Below are positions 3,860 to 53,950 of a stretch of 64,000 bases of DNA, piece after piece. The notes under the pieces were generated by a model. That model was not told where the DNA came from and did no database searches. It saw nothing but the letters and a program-made list of their open reading frames with translations. The stretch covers positions 96,001 to 160,000 of the IMG/VR virus record IMGVR_UViG_3300032516_000004; one strand, 5' to 3'. Both the position numbers and the translations under genes were made by a program. The stretch's first letter is position 1; each line of letters begins with the position of its first letter. Origin of the DNA: a virus.

Positions 3860-8278
<4,419 letters not shown>

Positions 8279-8288
8279 TAGGTAAAAT

Positions 8289-11162
8289 ATGGCAGATCCT
8301 AATATCTTTGGTAGTGTTATACTTGATTCAGTATCAACTGATCCAAGTTCCTCGGAAGATGGGGAGATGTGGTATAATTCTAGTCAGAGTAGATTTAAGA
8401 GAAAACGTGGTGGTGCCATTAAAGAATCTGCCGACACCGATGATGTTACTGATAGAGCAGTTGCTGTGTCGGGTAATGATACTACACCAGGCAGCATAGA
8501 AGCTAAAGTTGTTGCTGGCACAGCTGTTTCATTAGCTACTTTAAATGAAGGTGCAGACGAGACAAGGCAGATATCTGTTTCATTTGGTGCTACAGGATCT
8601 ACAGCATGTGTAGGTAATGATTCGCGGTTGAGTGATAATCGAACAGACAGCAACGCCATCCATAAGGCAACTTCTGGTGAGATTGCGGGTATGACTGAGA
8701 AAGGCACGCCAGTCGGTGCTGACCTGATTGTCATTGAGGATAGTGCGGCCAGTAACGCCAAGAAAAAGGTTCAGATTAGTAATTTGCCGAGTAGTAGCTC
8801 CGATACGAACGCAATCCATAAAAATGCCGCCAACGAAATCAGTACCATTACTGAGAAGACCACAATGGCAGATGCCGATCTGTTCATTCTTGAGGACAGC
8901 GCGGCAAGTGGGGTTAAGAAAAAAGTCCAGTTTGCCAATCTCAAGGGTACAGCATCGGCGGCGGGCGCTAAGGACAACATACAGTTCCGGGGGAGTCAAG
9001 CAGGGTCATTCGCGTCCGATGACTTATTCAAATGGGATGCTGTTGGCCATTACCTGATTGTCGGACCTACAAACCCAAGTCTAAACGGCATTCTGGAGTA
9101 TCTCGAAAAGAACCTGAATACCTACATCCAGGTTTGCCTCACGAACGTGAGTGGTGCGCCTCAGGCATCTACTGACGTTTGTGTTGGCAATGATCTCAGC
9201 ACAGATTTGAATTATTATGGTGATTTTGGGATCAATAGCTCGGGTAATACAGATCCGGCATATCCTCTCCTGTTGACCAACGACGTCTATCTCTACTGCA
9301 TGGATGGCCAGTTTGTCCTGGGCACGGGAACAGCCAACAAGGACGTGGTATTCCATAGTGGTGGTTTTGCGCTTGCCAACGAGCGACTACGAATCACTGG
9401 TGCTGGTAGCGTTGATATTAGTAGTGCATTCTCACTGAGGGGCGCTATCACTCCAACGTCTATTGGAGCCAACCAAAACAACTACGATCCTACAGGGCTG
9501 TCGACCGCCACATTCTTGCGCCTATCATCCAGCGGCTCATACAACATCACGGGATTGGCGGGTGGTACATCGGGTCGTGTCGTTATTATTCACAACATTG
9601 GGGCCAACAACCTAACCTTGAAGGATGAGAGCGCATCTAGCACGGCAGCAAATAGATTTGCCCTACCAAGCACCGATGATTTTGTGCTTTGGCCTGATCA
9701 GACCGTGATTCTCCACTATGATGCCACAACTACAAGATGGCGTGTCATCGGGTGTTCTCGCACACCCTATGGAAATCAGGCGAACACGATTTGCCAAGGC
9801 AATGATTCTCGATTGTCTGATTCTCGTGCCCCCACAGGTACGGCAAGCGGTGATCTGGCTGATACATACCCTAGTCCTACGGTTGCAAAAGCCAGCAAGT
9901 CATTTGCTTTGACCGGTGGCATTGCTCCTGCTTCCATCGGTGCAGACCAAAACGATTACAGCCCAACAGGCTTGGCCGATGCTACTTCGATTCGTCTGAC
10001 TGCCAGTGGTGCATACAACATCACGGGACTTGCCGGTGGTGTTGGTGGCAGGATGATGATCCTGCACAACGCCAGTGCGTTCAAACTCACGATTGTTAAT
10101 GAAAGTTCTGCCAGTACAGCAGCCAACAGATTCCTGCACACGTCAGCACAGAATCTCGTGCTGAACCCAGACCAGAACTGTGAGTTACAGTATTGTGGCG
10201 TATGCTCTCGCTGGCGAGTTACTGGAGCTTCGCGTGCCCCTTATGGCACAACTGTGGATTCAATTTGCCAGGGTAACGATTCCAGACTTTCAGATGCTCG
10301 TACACCAACTAGCCACGCATCGTCACATAACGCGGGTGGTGGTGATGCACTTGCCATTGACGCAGCGGCAGGTACGGGTTCTCTACGAACGCTCGGTACT
10401 GCGGCAACAGCGGCGTGCGCTGGTAATGATTCGCGGTTGAGCGACTCTCGTACACCTACCAGCCATGCGTCGTCGCATAATGCGGGTGGCGGTGATGCGC
10501 TTGCTATTGACGCGGCGGCAGGCACAGGTTCTCTCAGAACACTTGGTACTGGGGCAACAGCGGCATGTGCTGGTAACGACTCGCGGTTGAGTGATTCTCG
10601 TGCACCCACCAGCCACGCGACCAGTCATAAGAGCGCGGGTGGTGACAGCATCAAATTAGATGAGCTGGCCGCACCTACAGACGTTACAACACTCAATGCC
10701 ACCACAGGACAGCACGGTCTCTTGCCGAAGCTCGGTGGTGGGACAGCCAACTTCCTGCGAGCAGATGGTGCATGGGCTGCACCTTCGAGCAGTGGTGTTG
10801 TCCCCAGTGAAGCTACGGCAACCGGCACAACGACTACGACCTCGGCTACAGACGTGCAGATGGACAGCATGACCCTGACGCCAGGTGCTGGGACGTATCT
10901 GGTGATGTTCAGTACATCGGCCGCACATTCAGACGCGGCGGGCGCACTTTACGTGTCGATCTATGCCAACAGCGTACAAGTCGCGGCATCAGAGCGACGT
11001 AGAACAGCCGCCGATTTGAAACAGATCGGCATGGTGGTGCCGCTAGCAACCCAAGCGGTCGTGACGGTTTCAGCCGCACAAGTCATTGAAGTAAAATGGC
11101 GCACAAGCGTGGCAACCGCCACCGCATACCAACGGACCATGACGTTGCTCAAGATTGGGTAG
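8289..11162 (+). CDS. Tail-fibre/virion structural protein with internal repeated modules
   Basis: Duplicated ~115-aa module (SIGA.QN.Y.PTGL..AT..RL..SG.YNITGLAGG...RWRV.G.SR.PYG), duplicated NAIHK...EDSAAS..KKKVQ module, five GNDSRLSD motifs; Ala/Ser/Thr/Gly rich. Confidence 0.75.
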   Translation: MADPNIFGSVILDSVSTDPSSSEDGEMWYNSSQSRFKRKRGGAIKESADTDDVTDRAVAVSGNDTTPGSIEAKVVAGTAVSLATLNEGADETRQISVSFGATGSTACVGNDSRLSDNRTDSNAIHKATSGEIAGMTEKGTPVGADLIVIEDSAASNAKKKVQISNLPSSSSDTNAIHKNAANEISTITEKTTMADADLFILEDSAASGVKKKVQFANLKGTASAAGAKDNIQFRGSQAGSFASDDLFKWDAVGHYLIVGPTNPSLNGILEYLEKNLNTYIQVCLTNVSGAPQASTDVCVGNDLSTDLNYYGDFGINSSGNTDPAYPLLLTNDVYLYCMDGQFVLGTGTANKDVVFHSGGFALANERLRITGAGSVDISSAFSLRGAITPTSIGANQNNYDPTGLSTATFLRLSSSGSYNITGLAGGTSGRVVIIHNIGANNLTLKDESASSTAANRFALPSTDDFVLWPDQTVILHYDATTTRWRVIGCSRTPYGNQANTICQGNDSRLSDSRAPTGTASGDLADTYPSPTVAKASKSFALTGGIAPASIGADQNDYSPTGLADATSIRLTASGAYNITGLAGGVGGRMMILHNASAFKLTIVNESSASTAANRFLHTSAQNLVLNPDQNCELQYCGVCSRWRVTGASRAPYGTTVDSICQGNDSRLSDARTPTSHASSHNAGGGDALAIDAAAGTGSLRTLGTAATAACAGNDSRLSDSRTPTSHASSHNAGGGDALAIDAAAGTGSLRTLGTGATAACAGNDSRLSDSRAPTSHATSHKSAGGDSIKLDELAAPTDVTTLNATTGQHGLLPKLGGGTANFLRADGAWAAPSSSGVVPSEATATGTTTTTSATDVQMDSMTLTPGAGTYLVMFSTSAAHSDAAGALYVSIYANSVQVAASERRRTAADLKQIGMVVPLATQAVVTVSAAQVIEVKWRTSVATATAYQRTMTLLKIG
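10272..10620 (+). repeat. 150-nt (50-aa) coding tandem repeat, 2 full copies plus a partial third
   Basis: Units start at 10272, 10422 and 10572 (GNDSRLSD.RTPTSHASSHNAGGGDALAIDAAAGTGSLRTLGT.ATAACA). Confidence 0.9.
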
Positions 11163-13091: not shown

Positions 13092-15170
13092 ATGAACATC
13101 GCTATTGTTGACAAGTTTCACGATAATCACAATGCGTTTTCTCGACAAATTAAACTTCCAGACCACAACATAGAATATCTTAACAGTCTTTTCGATTTAG
13201 GTAAATACGATTTAGTTCATTTTGATTGGTGTGACGACCTGGCGGTTGCAGGCGTTAGAGTGTTAGAATCTTATAAATCGAGACCCCGAATAACTATCAG
13301 ATTGCATGCTTATGAAGCCCATGAAGATTGGATTAAGCGACTTAATTGGAAAGTTGTTGACGCCTTAATTTTTGTAAGTGAACACTATCGTGAAATTTTT
13401 AATAAGCATGTAACGATGGATAAAACCAAGCAACATGTTATTCATCATGGAATTGATCTTAATCGATATAAACTGGCAGAACATCCAGGTACAGATATTC
13501 TTTATGTGGGGTCCCTTAATTTCAAGAAGGGGCCACAATTATTAGCCCAAGCAGCCATAGCTTTACCAAACCATCAATTTCGTGTTTATGGTGATATACA
13601 GTGTGATCGATCACAAATTTACTTCGATCATTTGGCGTTATCAAATCTTGGATTTTCCGCACACAGTGAACATATTGAACAAATAATGCAACAACCCAAC
13701 TATCGATATATACTTAGCACATCTTTGGGGGAATCTTTTCACTTAGCGGTGGCTGAGGGGATGGCCTGTGGTCTAAAACCATTGGTTCATGATTGGTATG
13801 GTGCAAATAAATTATGGCCTTATACTTGGAGAGCTATATCTTCCTTGGTGGATATTGTTGAATCTTATACAGATGATACCCCTAAAAGTTGTAGACAGTG
13901 GATTGAAGATCATTACAGCGCCACAACACAAGCTGTTAAACTTAATAATACTATTCTCGGAGACGTCATGACTAGAAAACACAAGTCTAAGTCCGGTGTT
14001 TTGGCTAAAATAGATTGTGGGTCTCTAGCCATTTGCATGATTACTAAAGATAATTTCAAAGGGGTAGAACGGGCTGTTCGTAGTTGTGCTAAATATTTGG
14101 ATGCTCTTTATGTAGCGGTGGATGATCGAGATACTGATGATACGGTTAATAAAGTTAAGGGTTTAACGAAAGAACTGAAATTACGTGGACAGGTTACATC
14201 GTTTAAGGCCCCGGATCCTTGGGATTTTAGTTATGCGCGTAATATTGCTCATTCGATGAATGACTGTATGTGGGCTTTAGTATTAGATGATGATGAATAT
14301 GTATTACATCCAGAAGAAATCCCTGAATTGTTAGAGAATTGTAAAGATAAAGATGTCGTGGATGTTACGTGTGGTATGGGGGTTGATAAATATGGGAATG
14401 TATCTCATGCCTGGAAATTTTCTCGATTTATGAAGAATAAAGTTCGATGGATTAATGCACGACATAATATACCCGACGCCACGACATATTCAAGTAGTAC
14501 CATTTGGACAGGTGATATTGTGGTGGTGGATGATAAATCTATACGACCAACTGATATACGCGCTGCCAGAAATGAGCAACGTGAGACTAACGTTGAGATA
14601 TTTAGAAAGAAAGTAGATCAGAATCCAAATGATACTAGATCACTTTTTTATCTAGCAACAGCACACAAAGAATCTGGAAAATATTGGGAAGCAATACTCT
14701 GGTATCAACAATATCTTAAAACTGGTGGGTGGGATGAAGAGCGTTGGCAGGCGTATTATGATATGGCAGAATGTCAGATTAACCTTCGTCGATACACAGA
14801 AGCTAGAGAAAGTTTGTATAACGCCATTAAGGAAAAATATGATAGGGCAGAGGCATTCATACTAATGGGTGACGTTTTTTATGAGTGTGAAAGTTTTTAT
14901 GATGCTATGATATGGTATGAACTCGGCTGTGCGTTACCATACCCGCACGACGCACGATTATTTATTCAACGCAGCATCTATGATTGGGAAAGGTACGATA
15001 AGTTGTCAATGGCTCATCACCACCTAGAAAATTGGTCTAGAGCAATCGAAAATGCTAAAAAGGCATTAGAAAAAGTACCGGGTGATGATCGTATAAATAA
15101 AAACGTTCAATTATGGACAGAACACTTAGTTAAGGAGTCTACCGATGCCACCGAAGAGAAAGATGTCTAA
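13092..15170 (+). CDS. Glycosyltransferase fusion: GT4-like + GT2-like + TPR repeats
   Basis: GT-B signature (HHGIDL, YVGSLNFKKG, ESFHLAVAEGMACG); GT-A part (ICMITKD, DFSYARN, VLDDDE DxD-like); TPR helices (RSLFYLATAHKESGKYWEAILWYQQYL). Confidence 0.85.
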   Translation: MNIAIVDKFHDNHNAFSRQIKLPDHNIEYLNSLFDLGKYDLVHFDWCDDLAVAGVRVLESYKSRPRITIRLHAYEAHEDWIKRLNWKVVDALIFVSEHYREIFNKHVTMDKTKQHVIHHGIDLNRYKLAEHPGTDILYVGSLNFKKGPQLLAQAAIALPNHQFRVYGDIQCDRSQIYFDHLALSNLGFSAHSEHIEQIMQQPNYRYILSTSLGESFHLAVAEGMACGLKPLVHDWYGANKLWPYTWRAISSLVDIVESYTDDTPKSCRQWIEDHYSATTQAVKLNNTILGDVMTRKHKSKSGVLAKIDCGSLAICMITKDNFKGVERAVRSCAKYLDALYVAVDDRDTDDTVNKVKGLTKELKLRGQVTSFKAPDPWDFSYARNIAHSMNDCMWALVLDDDEYVLHPEEIPELLENCKDKDVVDVTCGMGVDKYGNVSHAWKFSRFMKNKVRWINARHNIPDATTYSSSTIWTGDIVVVDDKSIRPTDIRAARNEQRETNVEIFRKKVDQNPNDTRSLFYLATAHKESGKYWEAILWYQQYLKTGGWDEERWQAYYDMAECQINLRRYTEARESLYNAIKEKYDRAEAFILMGDVFYECESFYDAMIWYELGCALPYPHDARLFIQRSIYDWERYDKLSMAHHHLENWSRAIENAKKALEKVPGDDRINKNVQLWTEHLVKESTDATEEKDV

Positions 15171-21199: not shown

Positions 21200-22621
21200 G
21201 TGGCTCAGCGCATTGATATATCTGAAGATGCTTTAATACAAGATTGTGAAAACGGTCTTTTACAATCTGAAATGGCCCGAAAGTATAATGTGAGCAAAAC
21301 CACTATTAGTCAAAAGATTAAATTATATGGTATAAAATATACACCACGTTCTCAAAATCCAAGATATAGTGCTTTAATGTCTCAAGCATCTAATAAAATG
21401 TGGGACAATCAGGAATTACGACAACAGACTGGCAATCGAGCTAAGCAGCGCTGGGCCACAGAGCAATATCGTGAGAAGATTCAAGAAACTTACCAGAAGA
21501 CAGATTACGCGAAGCGTCAGGGTGAAATATCAAAGTTGGCGTGGCAGGATGATAAATATAGAAATCACTTAGTGTTATTATTTACATCTAATGAATTTAG
21601 AAATAAACAGCGTCAAAAATCTAATGATTGGTGGAATGATCCAAATAGAAGGCAGCAAGCTAGTAAAAGGACAAAACAAAATTGGACTAATGAAGAATTT
21701 CAACATAAGGTAGCAGTTGGTCAGAGTAAAGTTCCAAGAACAATGACCACCCCACATAGGCAGGTATGTAATTTACTTGATGCTATGGGCATAGAATATC
21801 AAACAGAGGTTCCAATAGCTAAGTATAGATTTGATATTTTGATACCTTCTCATAAGCTTTTTATTGAAACACAAGGTGATTATTGGCATGGTGAAAAGAA
21901 AAATGTAATCTGGCGAGATAGGGCTAAAGGATCATACATAGCCAACAATTTTCCGCAGTATAGGTATAAAGAATTATGGGAACATGAATGTGAGACCGAA
22001 GATTATGTTAGACATAAGCTAGAATATTGGCTTGGTGCTAAAATAAATCTTAAAGATTACAATTTTGACGATATACAAATTAAAACTGTAGATCGTGATG
22101 TGGCTAGTAAGTTTATTCGTGATTGGCACTATTTACATAAAGGCAGATTTGGTCTAGATATAGGTGGCTTTATAAGTGATCAGCTGGTTGTGTTGACTCG
22201 TTTTACGTCTGTTACTCGTCTCGAAATGGCTACAACAATAGGCTACCATCATAAAGAGGTATTGGAATTATCTAGATTATGTATCCATCCAGCATATCAG
22301 AAGAAGAATCTGGGTTCTTGGTTTTTGTCACGAGTTGAGGGTGTCATTAGACATTTAAGACCAGACATTAAGTGTTTGGTATCGTTTGCTGATATGACAT
22401 ATGGACATACGGGGGCAGTTTATAAGGCATCAAATTGGCAGTTAATATCAGAAACTAAACCAGATTATTGGTATGTGAAAGAGGATGGTTGGGTAATGCA
22501 TAAGAAAACATTATGGAATAAGGCTAAGGATGTTGGATTAACTGAAAACGATTTTGCTGCTAGATTTGGATATGTTAAAGTGTGGGGTAAAGAAAAATTT
22601 AAGTTTATTAAGAAACTGTAG
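21200..22621 (+). CDS. HTH + helical W-repeats + Vsr/DUF559-like endonuclease + Mom-like (GNAT-type) DNA-modification domain fusion (copy 1)
   Basis: EVPIAKYRFDILIP..LFIETQGDYWHG...LWEHE (PD-(D/E)xK); WHY, LELSRL, N..SWFLS, VSFAD..YGHTGAVYKASNW (Mom family). Confidence 0.75.
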   Translation: MAQRIDISEDALIQDCENGLLQSEMARKYNVSKTTISQKIKLYGIKYTPRSQNPRYSALMSQASNKMWDNQELRQQTGNRAKQRWATEQYREKIQETYQKTDYAKRQGEISKLAWQDDKYRNHLVLLFTSNEFRNKQRQKSNDWWNDPNRRQQASKRTKQNWTNEEFQHKVAVGQSKVPRTMTTPHRQVCNLLDAMGIEYQTEVPIAKYRFDILIPSHKLFIETQGDYWHGEKKNVIWRDRAKGSYIANNFPQYRYKELWEHECETEDYVRHKLEYWLGAKINLKDYNFDDIQIKTVDRDVASKFIRDWHYLHKGRFGLDIGGFISDQLVVLTRFTSVTRLEMATTIGYHHKEVLELSRLCIHPAYQKKNLGSWFLSRVEGVIRHLRPDIKCLVSFADMTYGHTGAVYKASNWQLISETKPDYWYVKEDGWVMHKKTLWNKAKDVGLTENDFAARFGYVKVWGKEKFKFIKKL

Positions 22622-31668: not shown

Positions 31669-32496
31669 ATGATAATGAAATGTCGTGAATGTGGTATAGA
31701 ATTTGTGGCCAATCCAATATTAAAGGGGAAACGGCGTAAACGTAAAGCATATTGTTTTAAATGCCTACCTTTACACGCAACTAGACAGGACCAATTAAAA
31801 ATAGCCAGTTTTTGTGGGAGACATTTAAATCCGATAGTTAGATGTATTATATGTAATAAGGATTTTTTAAGATCAACCAAAATTAGTAATAAAATGGTTC
31901 GTAGAATCAGATATTGTCTAAAGTGTGTTCCGGCCAATTTAAGTAATAACGATAAATATGATTTAACCATTAAATACCTACCACAATTAAACAATGAAAC
32001 TTTTAAATGTTTAAATTGTGGTAAAGAGTGTAGGGTTCATACTTATATTAATGGTAAAAGATATACGAGACGTAAATATTGCCCTGAATGTTTAACTAGA
32101 AATCAAAGCCATTATAAGTATTCTTCGTTTAATGGTAAAGAAATGATGTGTCGATATTGTGGTAAAAAATTTATATTTAAAACCAATGCGCATAATACAT
32201 CAGTAAAATGTGTGAAATGTTTTTGGAAACAAAGACTAAGTGCAATAAAGAAAAAAGCTGTTAAAGATAGGGGCGGAGAGTGTCAACTGTGTGGATATAA
32301 AAAACATAATTGCGCACTGGTGTTACATCATGTTGATCCTAGTAAGAAAGATATTAATTTTCACCATATAAATAGTTGGTCTAAGTTTAAGAAAGAAATT
32401 AAAAAATGTATCTTATTATGTTTTAACTGTCATCAGGAATTTCATAATGGCAGGATTAAGATACCTAAAAGAATCATAAAAAAGTGGATTAAATAG
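31669..32496 (+). CDS. HNH endonuclease with multiple Zn fingers
   Basis: Repeated CxxC; RGGECQLCGY..HNCALVLHHVDPSKK...CILLCFNCHQEFH. Confidence 0.9.
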   Translation: MIMKCRECGIEFVANPILKGKRRKRKAYCFKCLPLHATRQDQLKIASFCGRHLNPIVRCIICNKDFLRSTKISNKMVRRIRYCLKCVPANLSNNDKYDLTIKYLPQLNNETFKCLNCGKECRVHTYINGKRYTRRKYCPECLTRNQSHYKYSSFNGKEMMCRYCGKKFIFKTNAHNTSVKCVKCFWKQRLSAIKKKAVKDRGGECQLCGYKKHNCALVLHHVDPSKKDINFHHINSWSKFKKEIKKCILLCFNCHQEFHNGRIKIPKRIIKKWIK

Positions 32497-32543: not shown

Positions 32544-33023
32544 ATGTCACGAGAAATTGAACTTACCCGTGGTCTCACTACCGTTGTTGATGATGATGAT
32601 TATGACTGGTTGTCGGACATGGAATTTTATACACAAGTTGATGAGCGGGGCAAAACATACGCCGCCACATCAATTCTCGGAGACATTGTTTATCTTCACA
32701 GGCTTTTGACCGACACTGAAGATGGCGATGTGGTGGTAGATCATCGGAATGGTGACACTCTAGATAATCGTCGTGATAATCTTATAGTTAGTAGTTATCA
32801 AGAAAATGCGATGAACAAGTCCAAGACGAAGCATCATCGTAGTTCCAAATTCAAGGGTGTAACCAAGATGAAGAATGGGCGTTGGAAAGCCCATGTGGGG
32901 ATTGATGATCGGGATATTCATCTCGGATATTTTGATACTGAAGAAGAAGCAGCTAGGGCATATGATGAAGCTGCTAAAGATAAATTTGGTGATCGTGCGA
33001 AACTAAATTTTCCAGAAGGATAA
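32544..33023 (+). CDS. HNH-AP2 homing endonuclease
   Basis: LHRLL...VDHRNGDTLDNRRDNL; SSKFKGV..GRWKAHV...HLGYFDTEEEAARAYDEAA (AP2). Confidence 0.92.
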   Translation: MSREIELTRGLTTVVDDDDYDWLSDMEFYTQVDERGKTYAATSILGDIVYLHRLLTDTEDGDVVVDHRNGDTLDNRRDNLIVSSYQENAMNKSKTKHHRSSKFKGVTKMKNGRWKAHVGIDDRDIHLGYFDTEEEAARAYDEAAKDKFGDRAKLNFPEG

Positions 33024-33323: not shown

Positions 33324-34733
33324 ATGGTTAATAAATGTGTTGATATTGTGGTTGGATTGCAGGGTGGTTCAGAAGCAAAGGGAAAGTTAATTACTGCACT
33401 CCAGGATGTTTCATATAAAGCCATATGTCGTTCGGGCTCAACTAATGCATCTCATGGTGTTGTATTTAATGGAAATAAGATTTTCTTTCATCAATTTCCG
33501 TGTGGTTGTCTACATTTTCCTAAAGCTAAAATTATTTTAACTGGAAATGCACAAATTGATCACGAATATTTGAATAAGGAAATTCAGATTTTAAAGGATA
33601 ACAATCGTTGGCTTGATGAAAATGGTAAACCGCGATTGATTATTGATCCCAATGCCACCATTATTGATTCTGTTGATAAAATGGCTGAGAATGGTGGTCG
33701 TATGCCAGATTGCGGTGAGCTTTACTATCATCCTCGTGATTGTACGGTTCATAATCTTGCACATGATCGTCAAGCTGGTGATGAAAAGGCCTGGACTAAG
33801 GTTGCTGGTACATGTGTTGGGTGTCCCAAATTACCAGCTGATAGCGCTTGGGCTAAATTAGGTAGTACAACACACGGTGGTGGTGCTAATTCGATTAGAA
33901 AGATTACGCGTGGCACCAAAATGGCAATTATGCTTGGTCAGGAATTTGATCTGGCTAAGTATTTTAGAAGTAAACTTCCAGAAGACGCTACCAATGACGA
34001 AATTCAAGAATTTATTCTTGAGACTGTAAATAATGGACCGATTAGAGATTGGGCTCCTGCCGTTGAGGCGTCTCCAGTAAGATTTGCGTCTGACGATCAA
34101 GTAATCAAACCATTTATTGGAGACACAGTAGATATTTTAAATAGAATGATTGATCATAATGAATCAATATTACTAGAGGGAACACAAGGATCTATTTTGT
34201 CTCTACACTTTGGCCCACAAGGGAAGACCACTAGTCGAGATACCAACGCATCCAATTGGGTGATGGAGGCTGGTATTAGCCCGCTAGCAGTACGTGATAT
34301 TTATGGGGTATGTAGAACATTTCCCATTCGTGTTTTTGGTGATTCAGGGCCGATGCCTGGTACAGAGATTACTTGGGAAGAAGTCACTAAGTTTTCTGGT
34401 TCACCAGAACCAATTGTAGAGTTAACGAGTGCAACCAAGAGAAAGAGACGTGTTTCTACGTTTGGAGAAGAGTCATTTAGACGTGCATTAGATCTTAATC
34501 GCCCCACCAAATTGATGCTGTCTTTTGTGGACTATCTAAATTATGAAGATAAAGATAAGTCTTCTTGGGACAGCCTAACACAGAAAACGAGAGATTGGAT
34601 TACCGTCTTGGAAACCAAGATGGGTATTTTCTTCAATTATTTGTCAACAGGCCCAGCACCGGAGCACACTATTATTCGTAAGTCGCCTGGTGAATTGGCG
34701 GTCCAAGCTCAGATTGGGCGGCAAACCCTGTAA
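33324..34733 (+). CDS. purZ: Adenylosuccinate-synthetase family enzyme of PurZ/PurZ0 type (putative 2-amino-dAMP pathway)
   Basis: P-loop GLQGGSEAKGK with Ser in place of the catalytic Asp of PurA (GDEGKGK); NASH, GSTTHGGG, LEGTQG, TSRDT, RTFPIRV.GDSGP, LTSATKRKRRV, SFVDYL, LSTGP. Confidence 0.75.
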   Translation: MVNKCVDIVVGLQGGSEAKGKLITALQDVSYKAICRSGSTNASHGVVFNGNKIFFHQFPCGCLHFPKAKIILTGNAQIDHEYLNKEIQILKDNNRWLDENGKPRLIIDPNATIIDSVDKMAENGGRMPDCGELYYHPRDCTVHNLAHDRQAGDEKAWTKVAGTCVGCPKLPADSAWAKLGSTTHGGGANSIRKITRGTKMAIMLGQEFDLAKYFRSKLPEDATNDEIQEFILETVNNGPIRDWAPAVEASPVRFASDDQVIKPFIGDTVDILNRMIDHNESILLEGTQGSILSLHFGPQGKTTSRDTNASNWVMEAGISPLAVRDIYGVCRTFPIRVFGDSGPMPGTEITWEEVTKFSGSPEPIVELTSATKRKRRVSTFGEESFRRALDLNRPTKLMLSFVDYLNYEDKDKSSWDSLTQKTRDWITVLETKMGIFFNYLSTGPAPEHTIIRKSPGELAVQAQIGRQTL

Positions 34734-44212: not shown

Positions 44213-44602
44213 ATGGGTTTATATGACAGAATTAAAGATACGATTAACAAGCTTAAACCAACGCTGGCTGTTCAGCCTGCCCTGCGGCCTATTAAAGAAC
44301 CAATTGATATAGAAGAACCAGAAGTTCCAGAACCCATAAGAAAAGCTAGTTATATTAATGAGGCCAGCATTGTTTATGCTATTCGACAGGCGGCGCGTCA
44401 CAGGTTACTGGTGCAGGTGTATTATAATTTGGTCTGGCGGTATGTAGAGCCATATTCCATGCGCATGGGTAAATATGGTACATTATTTTATGGACACGAT
44501 CTTACAAGGAATAATACTCGTTCGTTTTATATTCATAAGATAGTGGAACTTAAGGGTACAGACATTCCATTTAATCCTAGATGGTTTATAGAAATTCAAT
44601 GA
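44213..44602 (+). CDS. WYL-domain protein
   Basis: IRQAARHRLLVQVYY...RYVEPYSM...LFYGHDLTRNNTRSFYIHKI. Confidence 0.7.
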   Translation: MGLYDRIKDTINKLKPTLAVQPALRPIKEPIDIEEPEVPEPIRKASYINEASIVYAIRQAARHRLLVQVYYNLVWRYVEPYSMRMGKYGTLFYGHDLTRNNTRSFYIHKIVELKGTDIPFNPRWFIEIQ

Positions 44603-46206
44603 AAATAGTGGACGATCAGATAAGAAAAGATTGTGCAATTGGTATGCTGGTATGTGAAATGGCCAAAAAATATGACGTTAGTATACGTAGTATTCGTATT
44701 TACATAAAAACACACAGTATTAACTATATAATGGATAAAAATAGACATAGAGCATATTTATCTACTAAATTAAAAGAAAAATGGACCGACCCCAAATTTA
44801 GAGAAAGAGCTACTAACGCCGCTATTGAGACTTGTAAAAGTAAACAATATAAAGATAATGTGTCATTAGCAACTAAAAAAGCAATGGATACTCCAGAGAT
44901 TAAAGCTAAACTGTCAAGAGCTTCAAAAGACAAATGGAATAACCCAGAATATAGAAATAATTTAATGGCATTATATTCTACTGAAGAGTATAAAAATAAA
45001 TTATCATCTATATCTATGGAAAGATGGAAAGATCCTGGTAGAAGACATAAAATATCGGTCGCTATTAAGAAAAGATGGAGCGATCTGGGGTATAGGCAAA
45101 AATCGTCAGAATCTTCAGCTATTAGACAGAACACGACAAGTCATAAATTAAAAATGTCCGATATATCTAAAGATGTATGGAAGAATCCAAACCATCGATT
45201 GAAAATGAGGAATATATGGATCAGTGATGAATATAAACAGAAAAAATCAAAAATAGCTCGAGGTCTATGGGAAGATGATGAATATAGAAACAAACTAGCG
45301 GTTGCCCAAAGAACAAATAAAAAATCGCTAACCAAACCACACAATAAGGTCATAACGATACTGGACGCATTAAATGTTCAATATGAAGTTGAGTATGTTA
45401 TTGGTCCTTGGACTTTTGATGTTTTTATACCAACACATAATATATTAATTGAGGTTCAAGGTAACTATTGGCATAGCTTTAAGGATCAGATTAGAAGAGA
45501 CAACAGCAAATTGTCTTATATATCTAAGTATTTTCCTCAGTATAAATTAAAATATATATGGGAACATGAATGTTTTACTGATAGACAAGTAGAAAGTAAA
45601 TTAAAATATTGGCTTGGCATTACTTTACAAGAAGTGAAGGAATTTAATTTTAACGATCTCGTCATAAAAACACCCAATATTAAAGAAGCAGATGACTTTC
45701 TATATAACTGGCACTATATGTATCGTGGAACACATGGTATAGATTATGGTGGGTATATTAATGGTCAATTAATAGTATTGGCTAGATTCACCTCGCCGCA
45801 TAGAAAAGAAGTCGCAACATCATTAGGGTATTCTCATAAAAATGTATTAGAACTGTCTAGGTTGTGTGTACACCCGCAATTTCAAAAGAAAAATTTGCTT
45901 AGTTGGTTTCTATCTAAAATTAAAAATCTAATTAATGTAAAAATTAAATGTCTTGTATCATTTGCTGATACTACATACGGACATACAGGAGCTGTATATA
46001 AAGCAAGTAATTGGGAATTGCATTCGATGGTAAGGCCAGACTATTATTATGTATCACCAGATGGGTGGGTAATGCATAAAAAGACCCTGTGGAATCGTGC
46101 TAGTAGTTTAAGTATGAAAGAATTAGAATATGCAAATAAAATTGGGTATATTAAAGTTTTGGGGAAAGAAAAGCTAAAATTTATATACAGATTTTATAGA
46201 GATTAA
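44599..46206 (+). CDS. HTH + helical W-repeats + Vsr/DUF559-like endonuclease + Mom-like domain fusion (copy 2)
   Basis: Same architecture as 21200..22621: EYVIGPWTFDVFIP..ILIEVQGNYWH; WHY, LELSRLC, VSFADTTYGHTGAVYKASNW; ATGA overlap at 44599. Confidence 0.75.
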   Translation: MKIVDDQIRKDCAIGMLVCEMAKKYDVSIRSIRIYIKTHSINYIMDKNRHRAYLSTKLKEKWTDPKFRERATNAAIETCKSKQYKDNVSLATKKAMDTPEIKAKLSRASKDKWNNPEYRNNLMALYSTEEYKNKLSSISMERWKDPGRRHKISVAIKKRWSDLGYRQKSSESSAIRQNTTSHKLKMSDISKDVWKNPNHRLKMRNIWISDEYKQKKSKIARGLWEDDEYRNKLAVAQRTNKKSLTKPHNKVITILDALNVQYEVEYVIGPWTFDVFIPTHNILIEVQGNYWHSFKDQIRRDNSKLSYISKYFPQYKLKYIWEHECFTDRQVESKLKYWLGITLQEVKEFNFNDLVIKTPNIKEADDFLYNWHYMYRGTHGIDYGGYINGQLIVLARFTSPHRKEVATSLGYSHKNVLELSRLCVHPQFQKKNLLSWFLSKIKNLINVKIKCLVSFADTTYGHTGAVYKASNWELHSMVRPDYYYVSPDGWVMHKKTLWNRASSLSMKELEYANKIGYIKVLGKEKLKFIYRFYRD

Positions 46207-50062: not shown

Positions 50063-50659
50063 ATGGTGAGATATCAAAACTTATTAAAACCTCTTAGTGG
50101 TCGTTGTGTGTGGGTATTCGGTCTACCATGCTCTGGTAAGAGTACTGTAATTCAAGCACTGATCGACTCGAGTAGAGAAATTTTGGCTAGAATTAGTAGT
50201 GGTGATATAGCCCGCAGATTATCCACAACCGTAGAAACTCAACATATGGCTGAAGGTAATTTGTTTCCACACGAACAACCTTTACGTGAGGAAATATTAA
50301 ATACCATTAATAAGCGTAAAGCTTCGGGTAGCGAAATTGTATTTATTGATGGATTTCCAAGAACTCCAGAACAAGTAAAATGGTGTGCAGATAATCAGTT
50401 GGCGGGAACTATCATGGAGGGGTGCTTCGTTCAAATATTTTCTGATGGTGACACGTTGGTTACACGTGCCAAGCATCGTATGAGGGATGATCAGGATAAA
50501 TTTGAAGCGCTAATAAAAAAGATTAATACACAACAACAATTGATTTATAAGTTAGACAAAACACTGCTAGAATATGGGTTTCCGTATTATACTGTTGTAA
50601 ATCAAGACATTACATTAGCAGTTAAACAGCTAGCTAAATTTGTGGGGCTTAAGAAATGA
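50063..50659 (+). CDS. Adenylate kinase-like NMP kinase
   Basis: GLPCSGKST, ISSGDIAR, EGNLFP, FIDGFPRTPEQ. Confidence 0.85.
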   Translation: MVRYQNLLKPLSGRCVWVFGLPCSGKSTVIQALIDSSREILARISSGDIARRLSTTVETQHMAEGNLFPHEQPLREEILNTINKRKASGSEIVFIDGFPRTPEQVKWCADNQLAGTIMEGCFVQIFSDGDTLVTRAKHRMRDDQDKFEALIKKINTQQQLIYKLDKTLLEYGFPYYTVVNQDITLAVKQLAKFVGLKK

Positions 50660-51825: not shown

Positions 51826-52440
51826 ATGAGAATATATTTAGCAGGCCCCATTGATATGGTGGTAGATCGTGGTGCTGATTGGCGAGACACACTTAAGAAG
51901 AACATGAATGGAAATAAGAGTGTTGTGTTCTTTGATCCTGTAGTGCCATACCATTTTAATGGTATTACACCATCAATTTCTGCCTACATACATGACATAA
52001 ATATGTTTGCTCTATATGAGTCTGATGTGGTGGTGGCTAGAATTATGAAGGATCAGGTTTCTATAGGAACCCCCATAGAATTATATGAGGCTATTAAGAA
52101 GAATAAGCCTATTATTCTAATTACTGACATGGACACGTCGGTGTATATGAATTATATTGGCAGCAGGTCCATTAAAGTTGATAATGTTTATGACGTGGGC
52201 ACTAAAATCGTAGAACTACAAAGAACCTGTAAATGTGGTGGCATGGATGCTCCAGACGGGACGCAGCATCAATGTATCCTCAAGAAAATTGATGAAGATT
52301 CTTCACGACTCTTAAAGCAACTAGAAAAACCTGGCAGCAATTTAAGTGGAGAATTAATGAAGGACGATTATGGTAATCTGGTACCAGTAAGTTTACGAAA
52401 ACTGAAGTTCGTGGGTGATAAGAAGGAAGACGAAGAATGA
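51826..52440 (+). CDS. Nucleoside 2-deoxyribosyltransferase / nucleotide N-glycosidase family protein
   Basis: IYLAGP, FFDP, DINMFAL..SDVVVA, SIGTPIEL..A..KNKPII. Confidence 0.8.
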   Translation: MRIYLAGPIDMVVDRGADWRDTLKKNMNGNKSVVFFDPVVPYHFNGITPSISAYIHDINMFALYESDVVVARIMKDQVSIGTPIELYEAIKKNKPIILITDMDTSVYMNYIGSRSIKVDNVYDVGTKIVELQRTCKCGGMDAPDGTQHQCILKKIDEDSSRLLKQLEKPGSNLSGELMKDDYGNLVPVSLRKLKFVGDKKEDEE

Positions 52441-52949
52441 TTCCAGAACTGCAACACACACGATACTTTTTGTGTCCGTCGTGTAATCAGTATAAGTTTG
52501 AAGTAGAGCATTTGATGGGCAATAATACTTCGTTTGGGCCATGGTATTGTGAGACAGATCGTTGCGATTGTGTGGTTCGAGGTCAGGTGCAAGATGGGAA
52601 AGTTACCGTTGAACAATCAGAACGAGATGGAAATCAATACTCCACGCTATCTTTATTGAAATTTAGAGATATTTATTTAGTGGTTAAACATAGTGTAATT
52701 GGCGACCAAAATGGACATATTGATCATTGGGATTATTTCTTCCATAGTCATCAGTGTCCCAGTAATTTATTCAGAACAGTAACTCACGTATTTGATAATC
52801 AAGAGAGTGATCCACATGGAATTGTGAGGTTTGTGGCCAGTATACCAGGAACAGATACTAATCACAGTAAAATAGATGAGACATACACTACCAATGATTT
52901 GTTAGTATTATTCAAAACCAATGGGGAACTACCGCCTAGTGAGTGGTAA
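52437..52949 (+). CDS. Hypothetical Cys-rich protein
   Basis: CPSC, GPWYC..C.C, FHSHQCP. Confidence 0.55.
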   Translation: MIPELQHTRYFLCPSCNQYKFEVEHLMGNNTSFGPWYCETDRCDCVVRGQVQDGKVTVEQSERDGNQYSTLSLLKFRDIYLVVKHSVIGDQNGHIDHWDYFFHSHQCPSNLFRTVTHVFDNQESDPHGIVRFVASIPGTDTNHSKIDETYTTNDLLVLFKTNGELPPSEW

Positions 52950-53016
52950 CCTGAAAATAAAGGTGTACTTGATTGGATCGCTAATCTCCGTAGAAATTCG
53001 AAAACCAGAGAAAATA

Positions 53017-53514
53017 ATGAATAAGATTGTATTTTGGTTATTTGGTGTATTGCCACGCATTCTATTTAGAGAATTGAAAATCAAGGTAGATCCTAGATGT
53101 CCAAATAGGCAACCAATTTTGCCCCCAGCTAAACCAGGTGATGTTGGTATGGACATGGTTTGCTGGGTTGACGATATTAATTGTAAGATATCTGTTCCAC
53201 CACATAAAATGGTGAATGTACCAATAGGTGCCAGCATTAAGCTACCACCAAATACTTGGGGCTCTATTAGATCAAGATCTAGCACATTTGCCAAACGAGA
53301 ACTGTTTGTAATGGACGGCACTATAGATGAAGCGTATGTTGGCCCATTGTTCATTTACGTGTGGAACCCAGGGTCAAAAGCACATGAAATTTCAAATGGT
53401 GAACGGTTAGCTCAGTTGATAATCATGCCGAGGATTGTTCCAAAACTTAAATATGTGGATGAACTTCCTGTAACAGAACGAGCAGAAACCGGGTTTGGAT
53501 CGACAGGATATTAA
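53017..53514 (+). CDS. dut: Trimeric dUTPase (start may extend to 52921)
   Basis: PAKPGDVGMD, RSRSS, GTIDEAYVG, GERLAQL, RAETGFGSTG. Confidence 0.9.
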   Translation: MNKIVFWLFGVLPRILFRELKIKVDPRCPNRQPILPPAKPGDVGMDMVCWVDDINCKISVPPHKMVNVPIGASIKLPPNTWGSIRSRSSTFAKRELFVMDGTIDEAYVGPLFIYVWNPGSKAHEISNGERLAQLIIMPRIVPKLKYVDELPVTERAETGFGSTGY

Positions 53515-53515
53515 T

Positions 53516-53950
53516 ATGCGTAAATCACGAACACGTAAAAAGTGTAAGAGTGCAATCAAGAAACTTACTTCTGTGTTTGAGAAACCCGTTGAATCACTTT
53601 CTGAGATAGCAGTGTGGGAGATCCAAGAAGAGGAAGATAGGCGGTGTCTTGATTTATTGTGTAGAAGGGTTACCGAAATGAAAGCAAAACACGATGTAAA
53701 GGAAGGGCGATTGTTAACTACAAAAGATGTTGAAATGGTAGATCATCCGGCTCATTATGGGGGTGCCGATAATCCATATGAGGCCATCAAGGTAATTGAA
53801 GCGTGGGGTCTTGGATTTCATCTCGGGTCGGCGGTGAAGTATATTTCACGTCTCAATAAAAAGGCCGGGAATTCAGGGTTACAAGACGCCCGTAAGTGTT
53901 TGTGGTATATTAAGCGATATGTTGAACTACTTGAGAAAAAGAACGCGTGA
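53516..53950 (+). CDS. DUF3310-like protein
   Basis: VDHPAHY...EAIKVIE..GFHLGSAVKYISR..KK...QDARKCLWY. Confidence 0.8.
   Translation: MRKSRTRKKCKSAIKKLTSVFEKPVESLSEIAVWEIQEEEDRRCLDLLCRRVTEMKAKHDVKEGRLLTTKDVEMVDHPAHYGGADNPYEAIKVIEAWGLGFHLGSAVKYISRLNKKAGNSGLQDARKCLWYIKRYVELLEKKNA

What the first reader, a model, noticed from the sequence alone, without database searches (positions are those of the whole stretch)
33324..34733. PurZ0-like synthetase: possible 2-aminoadenine (Z) genome in a large phage with a family C polymerase
Seen: GGSEAKGK with Ser16 where PurA has its catalytic Asp; GST rather than GTT; RTFPIRV; and Asp kept in SFVDYL. Established: the Asp-to-Ser change marks PurZ/PurZ0, which make the dZMP precursor from dGMP; the retained C-terminal Asp corresponds to the guanine-reading Asp of PurA and suggests GTP use as in PurZ0. 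I recall GSEAKG from the Gordonia phage PurZ0 but could not align it here. Characterised Z phages mostly pair this enzyme with a family A DpoZ. Here the replicase is DnaE-type, so this could be a new Z-incorporating replication system or a partial substitution.
Basis: partly seen in the sequence, partly recalled or inferred. Interest (0 to 1): 0.8.

Follow-up and report, generated by a model that had tools for sequence, protein, structure and literature searches.

The report
PurZ-type Z-base pathway, DnaE phage
A complete 178-kb uncultured phage whose only detectable DNA polymerase is a bacterial-type DnaE carries a new branch of the PurZ enzyme plus three helper enzymes that known phages use to replace adenine with 2-aminoadenine (Z), so it probably writes its DNA with Z, though nobody has measured its DNA.

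Summary
ORF 33324-34733 (469 aa) is an adenylosuccinate-synthetase homolog with Ser16 where PurA has its catalytic Asp, and the other quoted motifs are there too.

In a tree it falls in a strongly supported clade of Ser/Gly-type enzymes that excludes Asp-type PurA. Within that clade it forms its own long-form group. This group carries a four-cysteine insert and has lost an aromatic pocket residue. It lies inside neither the PurZ0 nor the PurZ reference clade.

The complete 177.9-kb genome also encodes:
- a DmtZ-like NDT protein with the catalytic triad intact
- a DutZ-lineage dUTPase
- a PurB adenylosuccinate lyase

This is the accessory set of PurZ0-type actinophages. DatZ, MazZ and DUF5664 are absent, and so are family A and B polymerases. 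DnaE, which carries an intein, is the only replicase found.

Five related 100-180 kb phages repeat the PurZ-like, Dut, NDT and DnaE combination.

Most likely this is a PurZ0-type dZTP pathway with dATP removed at the pool level, feeding a DnaE replisome. Enzyme activity, GTP use and Z in the DNA are all untested.

This scan reached the same reading earlier on another genome (e1-5818164).

The parts
33324..34733 (+). PurZ-type (Ser-type) adenylosuccinate-synthetase homolog, 469 aa, long-form clade
   Evidence: PF00709 E 5e-40; PHROG 1211 E 1.5e-53; tree placement; AF2 pLDDT 94.6 and Foldseek TM 0.92 to P. horikoshii PurA, 0.85 to phiVC8 PurZ, 0.78 to PurZ0
33354..33386 (+). P-loop GLQGGSEAKGK. 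Ser16 replaces PurA's catalytic Asp13. Gly14 replaces the aromatic residue (F12 in phiVC8 PurZ, W11 in E. coli PurA)
   Evidence: Alignment and residue map. Ser is invariant across 100 relatives. Position 14 is Ala or Gly throughout the long clade
33690..33848 (+). Cys-rich insert (about residues 123-175) just before the GST nucleotide-phosphate loop. It has four invariant cysteines (C130, C140, C164, C167) and is a probable metal-binding knuckle
   Evidence: Invariant columns in 16 long-clade sequences. The insert is absent from short PurA, PurZ and PurZ0. It is modelled with pLDDT 79-93. Metal binding is inferred
33912..34079 (+). Second, mostly helical insert (about residues 197-252), at the position where long bacterial PurA also has an extra subdomain
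   Evidence: Alignment; helices 210-217 and 224-236 in the model
34524..34535 (+). NTP-base pocket F401-V-D403-Y404. Asp as in PurA and PurZ0 (guanine-reading); Phe and Tyr as in ATP-type PurZ (F295, Y298)
   Evidence: Residue map. D403 is invariant in the long clade and at least 90% conserved across the 100-sequence set, as are F401 and Y404
51826..52440 (+). DmtZ-like NDT-superfamily protein (dAMP N-hydrolase / deoxyribose-5-phosphate transferase type)
   Evidence: PF15891 30.7 bits. Hit by DmtZ of Hiyaa, Archimedes, Wayne and Ghobes (E 1.4e-8 to 3e-3). Its only hit among 50,697 phage records is the Hiyaa DmtZ-DutZ fusion. Ghobes residues Tyr6, Asp12, Pro57, Asn77 and Glu103 are conserved as Y4, D10, P38, N59 and E85
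52921..53514 (+). DutZ-lineage trimeric dUTPase homolog (domain 53113-53508); the only dUTPase in the genome
   Evidence: PF00692 69 bits. Best-scoring phage hits are dUTPases of PurZ-bearing actinophages (Olihed 100 bits, Microbacterium phages 89-96) against 81 bits or less for others. Groups with DutZ references against five canonical Duts, support 94/99
53495..53950 (+). DUF3310 / PHROG 'nucleotide kinase' (T7 gp1.7-like), immediately downstream of the Dut-like gene; candidate dZMP/dGMP kinase
   Evidence: PF11753 41.8 bits; phrog_236 E 6e-20; its role in the pathway is inferred
50063..50659 (+). Adenylate-kinase-like nucleotide kinase upstream of the DmtZ-like gene
   Evidence: PF13207, PF00406
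58647..63266 (+). DnaE-type Pol III alpha with an intein; the only replicative polymerase family detected in the genome
   Evidence: PF07733 226 bits, PF17657, PHP, HHH_6 and intein PF14890; no PolA or PolB in the genome
29287..31587 (+). Class II-type ribonucleotide reductase upstream of the PurZ-like gene, separated from it by two HNH-type ORFs
   Evidence: PF02867 395 bits, TSCPD; HNH and AP2-HNH ORFs at 31669-32496 and 32544-33023; an RNR is also near the PurZ-like gene in relative G002

Best explanation
The ORF is a PurZ-type succino-2-aminodeoxyadenylate synthetase. It belongs to a previously unnamed long-form branch of the Ser-type PurA/PurZ superclade and is the entry enzyme of a largely phage-encoded dZTP pathway of the PurZ0 kind. 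The proposed route has five steps, and all of the chemistry is inferred. (1) The synthetase condenses dGMP with aspartate, probably using GTP as phosphate donor. (2) The phage's own PurB, encoded outside the window at G000:173374-174630, removes fumarate to give dZMP. (3) Phage kinases (the gp1.7-like and adenylate-kinase-like proteins) and host kinases raise dZMP to dZTP. (4) The DutZ-like dUTPase hydrolyses dATP (as well as dUTP and dGTP) to monophosphates, and the DmtZ-like NDT enzyme destroys dAMP, so adenine is excluded at the level of the nucleotide pool. (5) The DnaE replisome then incorporates Z opposite T and need not be Z-selective itself. What is shown here: homology, the diagnostic residues, clade placement, and conserved co-occurrence of the genes. 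What is inferred: substrates, phosphate donor, and Z in the DNA.
For: The catalytic Asp is replaced by Ser16, and the PurZ signature positions T368 (phiVC8 T262), W351 (W252), S181 and PIRV are all present. The protein lies in the Ser/Gly-type clade (SH-aLRT 100) that holds every PurZ and PurZ0 reference and excludes the Asp-type archaeal PurAs. None of the ~200 nearest database homologs with a readable P-loop has Asp. Five cellular genomes with a Ser-type paralog all also have a canonical PurA, so the Ser type is not the housekeeping enzyme. The same complete genome has a DmtZ-like protein with its catalytic triad, a DutZ-lineage dUTPase, and a PurB that passes the NCBIfam equivalog cut-off (398.8 against 326.2 bits). 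PurB-like genes are annotated in the PurZ0 phages Ghobes, Archimedes and Hiyaa. Five related IMG/VR phages of 103-178 kb have PurZ-like, Dut, NDT-like (adjacent or fused) and DnaE, with no PolA, PolB or DatZ. In G006 the PurB-like gene ends about 60 bp upstream of the PurZ-like gene on the same strand. DutZ and DmtZ activities on dATP and dAMP were shown experimentally for Ghobes and Wayne (PMC12884076). For GTP: D403 aligns with E. coli D333 and T442 with E. coli T415, both as in PurA and PurZ0 and unlike ATP-type PurZ.
Against: There is no biochemical or DNA-composition data for this phage or its clade. [quoted passage not shown] The NTP pocket also carries F401 and Y404, the adenine-stacking residues of ATP-type PurZ. 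The protein is not inside the PurZ0 clade. DmtZ Trp124 is not conserved (V106). The Dut tree used only five canonical references. Wayne's DutZ still prefers dUTP, so a DutZ-lineage enzyme need not remove dATP efficiently. A PurA-like plus PurB pair would also fit plain AMP synthesis. Two Mom-family genes in this genome hint that adenine-type N6 targets may exist in its DNA.
Confidence: 0.68

Rival explanations
1. An auxiliary purine-salvage pair: the Ser-type enzyme and the phage PurB convert IMP to AMP (ordinary adenylosuccinate chemistry) to boost adenine nucleotide supply during infection, and the dUTPase and NDT proteins do ordinary pool sanitation.
For: PurA followed by PurB is the canonical two-step AMP branch, and the phage PurB scores as a true PurB equivalog. 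The closest solved structure is a genuine IMP/GTP PurA from P. horikoshii. Large phages often carry nucleotide-metabolism genes; this one has RNR, ThyX and dCMP deaminase.
Against: The general-base Asp is replaced by Ser in all ~200 nearest homologs (three have Gly), and the clade excludes all Asp-type enzymes. According to the literature cited, reverting S14 to Asp in PurZ abolishes substrate selectivity. Cellular genomes with Ser-type paralogs keep a canonical PurA as well. The accessory genes are specifically of the DutZ and DmtZ lineages that destroy dATP and dAMP, which is the opposite of boosting adenine.
Confidence: 0.1
2. A PurZ-related enzyme with a shifted substrate or product. The changed base pocket (Gly14, Ser43) and the four-Cys insert beside the nucleotide loop would adapt it to a nucleotide other than dGMP, so that the phage makes a purine other than plain Z, or substitutes only partially.
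For: Gly or Ala at the F12 position and Ala or Ser at the G40 position are clade-specific. The insert lies directly before the GST loop that closes on the nucleotide phosphate. This genome alone has two Mom-family genes.
Against: All other catalytic and aspartate-loop residues match PurZ and PurZ0. The helper set is the one characterised for Z. Relatives with the same pocket lack Mom. One mid-length relative with the Cys insert keeps the aromatic residue (P0075), so the insert and the pocket change are not strictly coupled.
Confidence: 0.14
3. The pathway is of the Z type but serves something other than genome substitution, for example transient pool manipulation or anti-defence, while the DNA stays canonical.
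For: No Z-selective polymerase (DpoZ) is present, and no DatZ.
Against: According to the literature, cyanophage S-2L makes a fully Z genome without DpoZ. Pool-level removal of dATP by DutZ and DmtZ is the mechanism described for PurZ0 phages (PMC12884076). The four-gene set is conserved across diverged large phages.
Confidence: 0.08

Closest known systems
PurZ0 / DutZ / DmtZ (plus PurB-like) Z-genome system of actinophages: Gordonia phages Ghobes and Archimedes, Arthrobacter phage Wayne, Streptomyces phage Hiyaa (PDB 7VF6; PMC12884076)
   Same: Ser-type synthetase with the GSEAKG P-loop and the guanine-reading Asp retained. DutZ-lineage dUTPase. DmtZ-like NDT protein with the Tyr/Asn/Glu triad, adjacent to or fused with Dut. 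Phage-encoded PurB-like lyase. No DatZ or MazZ.
   Different: The synthetase forms a separate clade with about 130 extra residues (a four-Cys insert plus a helical insert), Gly instead of the F12 aromatic, and F/Y flanking the Asp. The polymerase is DnaE, whereas all five references tested have PolA (DpoZ-1) and no DnaE. The genome is 178 kb against 39-83 kb. There is no DUF5664. The PurZ-like gene lies about 17 kb from the Dut/NDT pair rather than in one tight cluster.
PurZ / DatZ / MazZ / DpoZ system (Vibrio phage phiVC8, Acinetobacter phage SH-Ab 15497; PDB 6FM1, 6FKO)
   Same: Ser at the catalytic Asp position; T262 and W252 equivalents; F295 and Y298 equivalents; overall short-PurA fold (TM 0.82-0.85).
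   Different: The P-loop is GSEAKG, not GSTGKG. Asp, not Asn, sits at the NTP-base position. There is no DatZ, MazZ/DUF550 or DpoZ.
Cyanophage S-2L (PurZ, DatZ and MazZ with a PrimPol-type replicase; PDB 7ODX; PMC8342488)
   Same: A precedent for a Z genome without a Z-selective family A polymerase, where adenine is excluded at the pool level.
   Different: S-2L removes dATP with DatZ, whereas this genome has only the DutZ/DmtZ route. The polymerase family also differs.
Short archaeal PurA (Pyrococcus horikoshii PH0438; PDB 5K7X, 2D7U)
   Same: Closest solved relative by sequence (E 7.5e-36) and by fold (TM 0.92). The GTP-pocket Asp and STGP motif are retained.
   Different: The archaeal enzyme has the catalytic Asp, GTT, and Gly at the T262 position. 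It has no inserts and uses IMP.

Membership tests
PurZ/PurZ0 superclade (Ser-type succino-2-aminodeoxyadenylate synthetases; PHROG 1211) | Adenylosuccinate-synthetase fold and homology | tested here: met
   PF00709 E 5e-40; PHROG 1211 E 1.5e-53; Foldseek TM 0.78-0.92 to PurA, PurZ and PurZ0 structures
PurZ/PurZ0 superclade (Ser-type succino-2-aminodeoxyadenylate synthetases; PHROG 1211) | Catalytic Asp13 of PurA replaced by Ser | tested here: met
   Ser16; invariant in 100 relatives
PurZ/PurZ0 superclade (Ser-type succino-2-aminodeoxyadenylate synthetases; PHROG 1211) | [quoted passage not shown] | tested here: met
   T368 and W351; residue list from bioRxiv 10.1101/2025.10.22.683976
PurZ/PurZ0 superclade (Ser-type succino-2-aminodeoxyadenylate synthetases; PHROG 1211) | Aromatic residue at phiVC8 F12 | tested here: not met
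   Gly14; Ala or Gly throughout the long clade; aromatic in PurA, PurZ and PurZ0 references and most cellular Ser types (one has Leu)
PurZ/PurZ0 superclade (Ser-type succino-2-aminodeoxyadenylate synthetases; PHROG 1211) | Falls in the clade with PurZ and PurZ0, apart from Asp-type PurA | tested here: met
   Clade of 85 Ser/Gly-type rows, SH-aLRT 100, with the Asp-type archaeal PurAs and E. coli PurA outside
PurZ/PurZ0 superclade (Ser-type succino-2-aminodeoxyadenylate synthetases; PHROG 1211) | Catalyses dGMP + Asp to dSMP | not testable with these tools
   Needs an enzyme assay
PurZ0 subgroup (GTP-type, actinophage clade) | Monophyly with PurZ0 references | tested here: inconclusive
   The window clade (22 rows, support 100) is separate from the PurZ0 references (support 100) in the best tree. 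The AU test does not reject holding them together (p 0.212)
PurZ0 subgroup (GTP-type, actinophage clade) | Guanine-reading Asp (E. coli D333) retained, with a PurA-like residue at E. coli T415 | tested here: met
   D403 and T442; but the flanking F401 and Y404 resemble ATP-type PurZ
PurZ0 subgroup (GTP-type, actinophage clade) | Genome encodes DutZ and usually DmtZ | tested here: met
PurZ0 subgroup (GTP-type, actinophage clade) | Paired with a DpoZ-1 family A polymerase | tested here: not met
   No PF00476 hit in the complete genome; no tblastn hit with Wayne or phiVC8 DpoZ; the five reference phages all have PolA
PurZ subgroup (ATP-type) | GSTGKG P-loop, Asn at the D333 position, DatZ and MazZ/DUF550 partners | tested here: not met
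   GSEAKG and D403; no HD, YfbR-like or PF04447 hits; the weak MazG hit was not confirmed
Canonical PurA (IMP + Asp + GTP to adenylosuccinate) | Catalytic Asp13; GTT loop; Gly at the T262 position | tested here: not met
   Ser16, Ser181, Thr368
Z-genome phage | 2-aminoadenine replaces adenine in virion DNA | not testable with these tools
   Sequence reads report Z as A; needs LC-MS, restriction resistance or nanopore signal

The most novel reading that the evidence does not exclude
The long-form clade is a third PurZ lineage whose remodelled base pocket (Gly14, Ser43) and metal-binding insert give it a different substrate or product. In this genome, the resulting 2-aminoadenine-type base might additionally be decorated after replication by the two Mom-family enzymes, giving a hypermodified diaminopurine replicated by a DnaE replisome.
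Probability: 0.08. Interest if true: 0.9.

Novelty: new variant of a known kind. Interest (0 to 1): 0.66.

Why it matters
All experimentally characterised Z-genome phages are small (about 39-83 kb among those examined here), and nearly all pair PurZ with a Z-selective family A polymerase.

If this lineage really uses Z, three things follow:
- Z genomes would extend to 100-180 kb phages replicated by a bacterial-type family C polymerase.
- Pool editing by DutZ and DmtZ would be shown to suffice without DpoZ or DatZ.
- A natural DnaE could be tested for how it handles dZTP.

The clade also supplies a structurally distinct PurZ (four-Cys insert, altered base pocket) for enzymology and for engineering Z-DNA synthesis. 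The related record G002 carries the same synthetase clade next to a UDG-PolA fusion, which shows the module moves between replication systems.

Tried and rejected
- Megablast of 20 kb around the gene against 50,697 phage records found no close relative.
- Searches for DatZ, MazZ and related helpers found nothing: Pfam HD, YfbR-like and PF04447 over the whole genome, and tblastn with phiVC8 and Bm1 DatZ, Wayne DUF5664, DMU1 and phiVC8 neighbour proteins, and Wayne and phiVC8 DpoZ.
- One weak MazG hit (12.9 bits) was not confirmed when its ORF was scanned.
- I asked whether the Mom-family genes belong to the Z module. They are absent from seven related large phages and from five reference Z phages, so I rejected the link.
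- I asked whether Hiyaa, the best DmtZ match at 83 kb, already pairs PurZ0 with DnaE. It does not: it has PolA and no DnaE.
- I considered a phage-encoded PurB as a novelty and rejected it, because PurB-like genes are already annotated in Ghobes, Archimedes and Hiyaa.
- Distances from the insert to the active site could not be measured, because model coordinates are not exposed to scripts.
- Literature searches for PurZ or 2-aminoadenine together with DnaE or Pol III returned nothing relevant. The original PurZ0 paper is not in the searchable library, so PurZ0's use of GTP rests on my own knowledge, the bioRxiv introduction and the PDB entry titles.
Full report
**1. The observation**

ORF 33324-34733 (+) encodes 469 aa and starts at an ATG with an AGGAG ribosome-binding site just upstream. 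It matches Pfam Adenylsucc_synt at E 5e-40 and PHROG 1211, the PurZ family, at E 1.5e-53.

Against PDB sequences the best hit is the short PurA of Pyrococcus horikoshii (E 7.5e-36). PurZ0 of Gordonia phage Archimedes (7VF6, 1.5e-19), phiVC8 PurZ (6FM1, 6e-18) and S-2L PurZ (7ODX, 2e-9) follow. Among 50,697 deposited phages, 197 records match. The listed hits are annotated adenylosuccinate-synthetase or PurZ genes (two as hypothetical protein), at 24-40% identity. No deposited phage is close at the DNA level.

**2. Where the protein sits**

The window is bases 96001-160000 of a 177,941-bp IMG/VR virus record that CheckV rates 100% complete.

None of the ~200 nearest homologs with a readable P-loop, drawn from two very large protein databases, has Asp at the catalytic position. 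They have Ser (196) or Gly (3).

I built a 90-sequence maximum-likelihood tree rooted on E. coli PurA. It places four Asp-type archaeal short PurAs at the base. A clade of 85 Ser/Gly-type sequences follows (SH-aLRT 100). This clade contains the PurZ0 references (Wayne, Hiyaa, Archimedes, Ghobes; support 100), the PurZ references (phiVC8, DMU1, Bm1; support 100), many cellular paralogs, and the window's own clade of 22 long-form proteins (support 100).

The window clade is inside neither reference clade. An AU test does not reject uniting it with PurZ0 (p 0.21), so its exact sister group is open.

**3. Residues**

Positions use phiVC8 numbering from the metaGPA preprint, mapped.

| Published position | Window residue | Comment |
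|---|---|---|
| phiVC8 S14 | S16 | PurZ-like |
| phiVC8 T262 | T368 | Gly in PurA |
| phiVC8 W252 | W351 | Gly or Gln in PurA |
| 'GTT' in PurA | 'GST', Ser181 | PurZ-like |
| 'P(S)TRV' in PurA | 'PIRV' | PurZ-like |
| E. coli His41, Asn38, Gln224, Arg-rich aspartate loop | retained | catalytic machinery intact |

Two pocket positions differ from every characterised enzyme:
- The aromatic F12 (W11 in E. coli) is Gly14 here, and Ala or Gly across the clade.
- Gly40 of the NAGH motif is Ser43, and Ala in most clade members.

The NTP-base pocket reads F401-V-D403-Y404. D403 aligns with E. coli D333 and is Asp in PurA and PurZ0 but Asn in ATP-type PurZ. T442 aligns with E. coli T415 and is Thr in PurA and PurZ0 but Phe, Trp or Leu in PurZ. 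F401 and Y404, however, match PurZ's adenine-stacking F295 and Y298. I read this as GTP-type with moderate confidence.

A sentence in PMC12884076 assigns ATP to PurZ0 and GTP to PurZ. That conflicts with the PDB titles (6FM1 with ATP, 7ODX with dATP) and with the preprint's introduction, so the order in that sentence is probably swapped.

**4. The inserts**

Relative to short PurA, PurZ and PurZ0, the protein has about 130 extra residues in two blocks.
- The first block (about 123-175) lies directly before the GST nucleotide-phosphate loop. It carries four cysteines that are invariant in 16 clade members (C130, C140, C164, C167) and an invariant His143. Shorter 390-aa relatives already have a Cys-rich version of it.
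- The second block (about 197-252) is helical. It sits where long bacterial PurA also has an extra subdomain.

AlphaFold2 with a 100-sequence alignment gives pLDDT 94.6 and pTM 0.91, and the insert scores 79-93. Foldseek finds only PurA-family structures: TM 0.92 to 5K7X, 0.85 to 6FKO and 0.78 to 7VF6. Metal binding is inferred, not shown.

**5. The rest of the pathway**

Whole-genome scans found no HD or YfbR-like DatZ, no DUF550/MazZ, no DUF5664, and no family A or B polymerase. A 12.9-bit MazG hit did not survive a direct scan of its ORF.

The genome has three helpers of the PurZ0 type instead.

- **DmtZ-like NDT protein (window 51826-52440).**
  - DmtZ of Hiyaa, Archimedes, Wayne and Ghobes find it (E 1.4e-8 to 3e-3).
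  - In reverse, its only hit in the whole phage collection is the Hiyaa DmtZ-DutZ fusion.
  - The experimentally defined Ghobes residues Tyr6, Asp12, Pro57, Asn77 and Glu103 are conserved here. That includes Asn77, which is Asp in most of the NDT superfamily. Trp124 is not conserved.
- **dUTPase homolog (52921-53514), the only one in the genome.**
  - Its best-scoring matches among 1,446 phage records are the dUTPases of PurZ-bearing actinophages: Olihed at 100 bits and Microbacterium phages at 89-96, against 81 or less for others.
  - With its relatives it groups with six DutZ references against five canonical dUTPases (UFboot 94, SH-aLRT 99).
- **Adenylosuccinate lyase at G000:173374-174630 (minus strand, outside the window).**
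  - It passes the NCBIfam PurB equivalog cut-off at 398.8 against 326.2 bits.
  - Papers describe this step as host-encoded, but PurB-like genes are annotated in Ghobes, Archimedes, Hiyaa and their kin. This is a shared trait, not a new one.

A T7 gp1.7-type nucleotide kinase (DUF3310, phrog_236) directly follows the Dut-like gene, and an adenylate-kinase-like protein lies 1.2 kb upstream of the NDT gene. A class II RNR, a dCMP deaminase and ThyX are also present.

**6. Conservation**

A profile scan of IMG/VR found relatives on seven large records. All seven records carry the PurZ-like gene, and none has a DatZ or PolB hit.

| Record | Size | Dut | NDT-like | DnaE | PolA |
|---|---|---|---|---|---|
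| G001 | 166 kb | yes | yes, adjacent | yes | no |
| G003 | 113 kb | yes | yes, adjacent | yes | no |
| G004 | 143 kb | yes | fused to Dut in one 297-aa ORF, as in Wayne | yes | no |
| G005 | 178 kb | yes | yes, adjacent | yes | no |
| G006 | 103 kb | yes | yes, adjacent | yes | no |
| G002 | 184 kb, terminal repeats | no | no | no | yes, as a UDG-exonuclease-PolA fusion |
| G007 | 159 kb (36% complete) | yes, with a different N-terminal region | no hit | no hit | no |

G004 and G006 also have a PurB-like gene. In G006 it ends about 60 bp upstream of the PurZ-like gene on the same strand.

G002's PurZ-like gene lies next to an RNR. UDG was one of the domains associated with dZ contigs in the metaGPA preprint.

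By contrast, all five deposited PurZ0-type phages I tested have PolA and no DnaE.

**7. Is Ser diagnostic?**

A scan of species genomes found many short Ser-type PurA-like genes in bacterial and archaeal assemblies: 70 Ser, 6 Gly and 4 Asp among 80 loci, though one of the two search patterns required Ser. In five such genomes, including complete chromosomes, a canonical full-length PurA (558-608 bits; split over two adjacent frames in one of them) is present as well. The Ser type is therefore an extra paralog and not the AMP-branch enzyme. This supports a distinct function, but the cellular role is unknown.

**8. Mechanism, rivals and verdict**

The best-supported model is a PurZ0-type, largely phage-encoded route from dGMP through dSMP and dZMP to dZTP. 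DutZ and DmtZ would remove dATP and dAMP, and the pathway would feed a DnaE replisome that need not discriminate. S-2L is the precedent for a Z genome without DpoZ.

Homology, residues and gene co-occurrence are shown. Substrates, phosphate donor and DNA composition are inferred.

Rivals are an IMP-to-AMP salvage pair, a shifted substrate or product, and pool manipulation without genome substitution. They are weighed in the rival section.

The thing is a new variant of a known kind: the PurZ0-type system in a new synthetase clade, in large phages, with a family C replicase. I found no paper in the library linking PurZ or 2-aminoadenine with DnaE. An earlier agent of this scan reached the same reading on another 178-kb genome (e1-5818164). 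I tested the claim independently here.

Noticed in passing
window 21200-22621 and 44581-46206: Two full-length paralogs (40% identity, E 4e-141) of about 470-540 aa, each with a C-terminal Mom-family domain (PF25680, 91.6 and 71.6 bits). The first has weak Vsr/REase and HTH hits at its N-terminus. Mu Mom modifies N6 of adenine in DNA. They are absent from seven related large phages and from five reference Z phages, so they are not part of the Z module. Their target in a putatively Z-substituted genome is unexplained.
   Followed up: partly
L027, L040, L046, L061, L090 and other loci L013-L092 (cellular genomes): Short Ser-type (some Gly-type) PurA-like paralogs are common in bacterial and archaeal assemblies, including complete chromosomes (Pirellulaceae SH501, Lacibacter, Dehalococcoidia). 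They occur alongside a canonical PurA. Published surveys mention only a handful of archaeal cases. Their cellular role, and whether they sit in prophages, is unknown.
   Followed up: partly
L094:1690-4245 (record G002): A related 184-kb phage with terminal repeats carries the same PurZ clade near a single 851-aa protein that fuses UDG, a 3'-5' exonuclease and family A polymerase domains. It has no Dut, NDT, DnaE or DatZ. This is a different, uncharacterised accessory context for the same synthetase.
   Followed up: partly
L176:2564-5212 (record G006): The PurB-like lyase gene and the PurZ-like gene are about 60 bp apart on the same strand, an operon-like pairing of the two consecutive pathway steps.
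   Followed up: yes
proteins P0130, P0134, P0136, P0104 and others: Many 500-570-aa proteins carry the Ser-type synthetase domain at the C-terminus behind an extra region of about 180-330 aa (P0104 has an AAA_18 kinase-type domain). These are possible kinase-synthetase fusions.
   Followed up: no
window 31669-32496 and 32544-33023: Two HNH-type ORFs (one with an AP2 domain, HNH_3) lie between the RNR gene and the PurZ-like gene. They are likely homing endonucleases and add to the mobile-element load of the replication module. The DnaE intein with an antisense HNH gene was reported earlier in this scan.
   Followed up: partly
window 52437-52949: A 170-aa ORF with no Pfam or PHROG match sits between the DmtZ-like and DutZ-like genes, which are directly adjacent or fused in relatives.
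   Followed up: partly
L150 (record G007, 62303-62695): The Dut homolog of this relative sits in a 242-aa ORF with an unrelated helical N-terminal region in place of an NDT domain. This may be another fusion partner.
   Followed up: no
window 3902-8278, 8289-11162, 13092-15170: A 1,458-aa protein with 12 collagen triple-helix repeat stretches (E 2e-166), followed by a depolymerase-like protein and a GT4-GT2-TPR glycosyltransferase.
   Followed up: no
[quoted passage not shown]: The sentence assigning ATP preference to PurZ0 and GTP to PurZ appears to have the order swapped. It conflicts with the PDB titles for phiVC8 and S-2L PurZ (ATP, dATP) and with the introduction of the metaGPA preprint.
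   Followed up: partly
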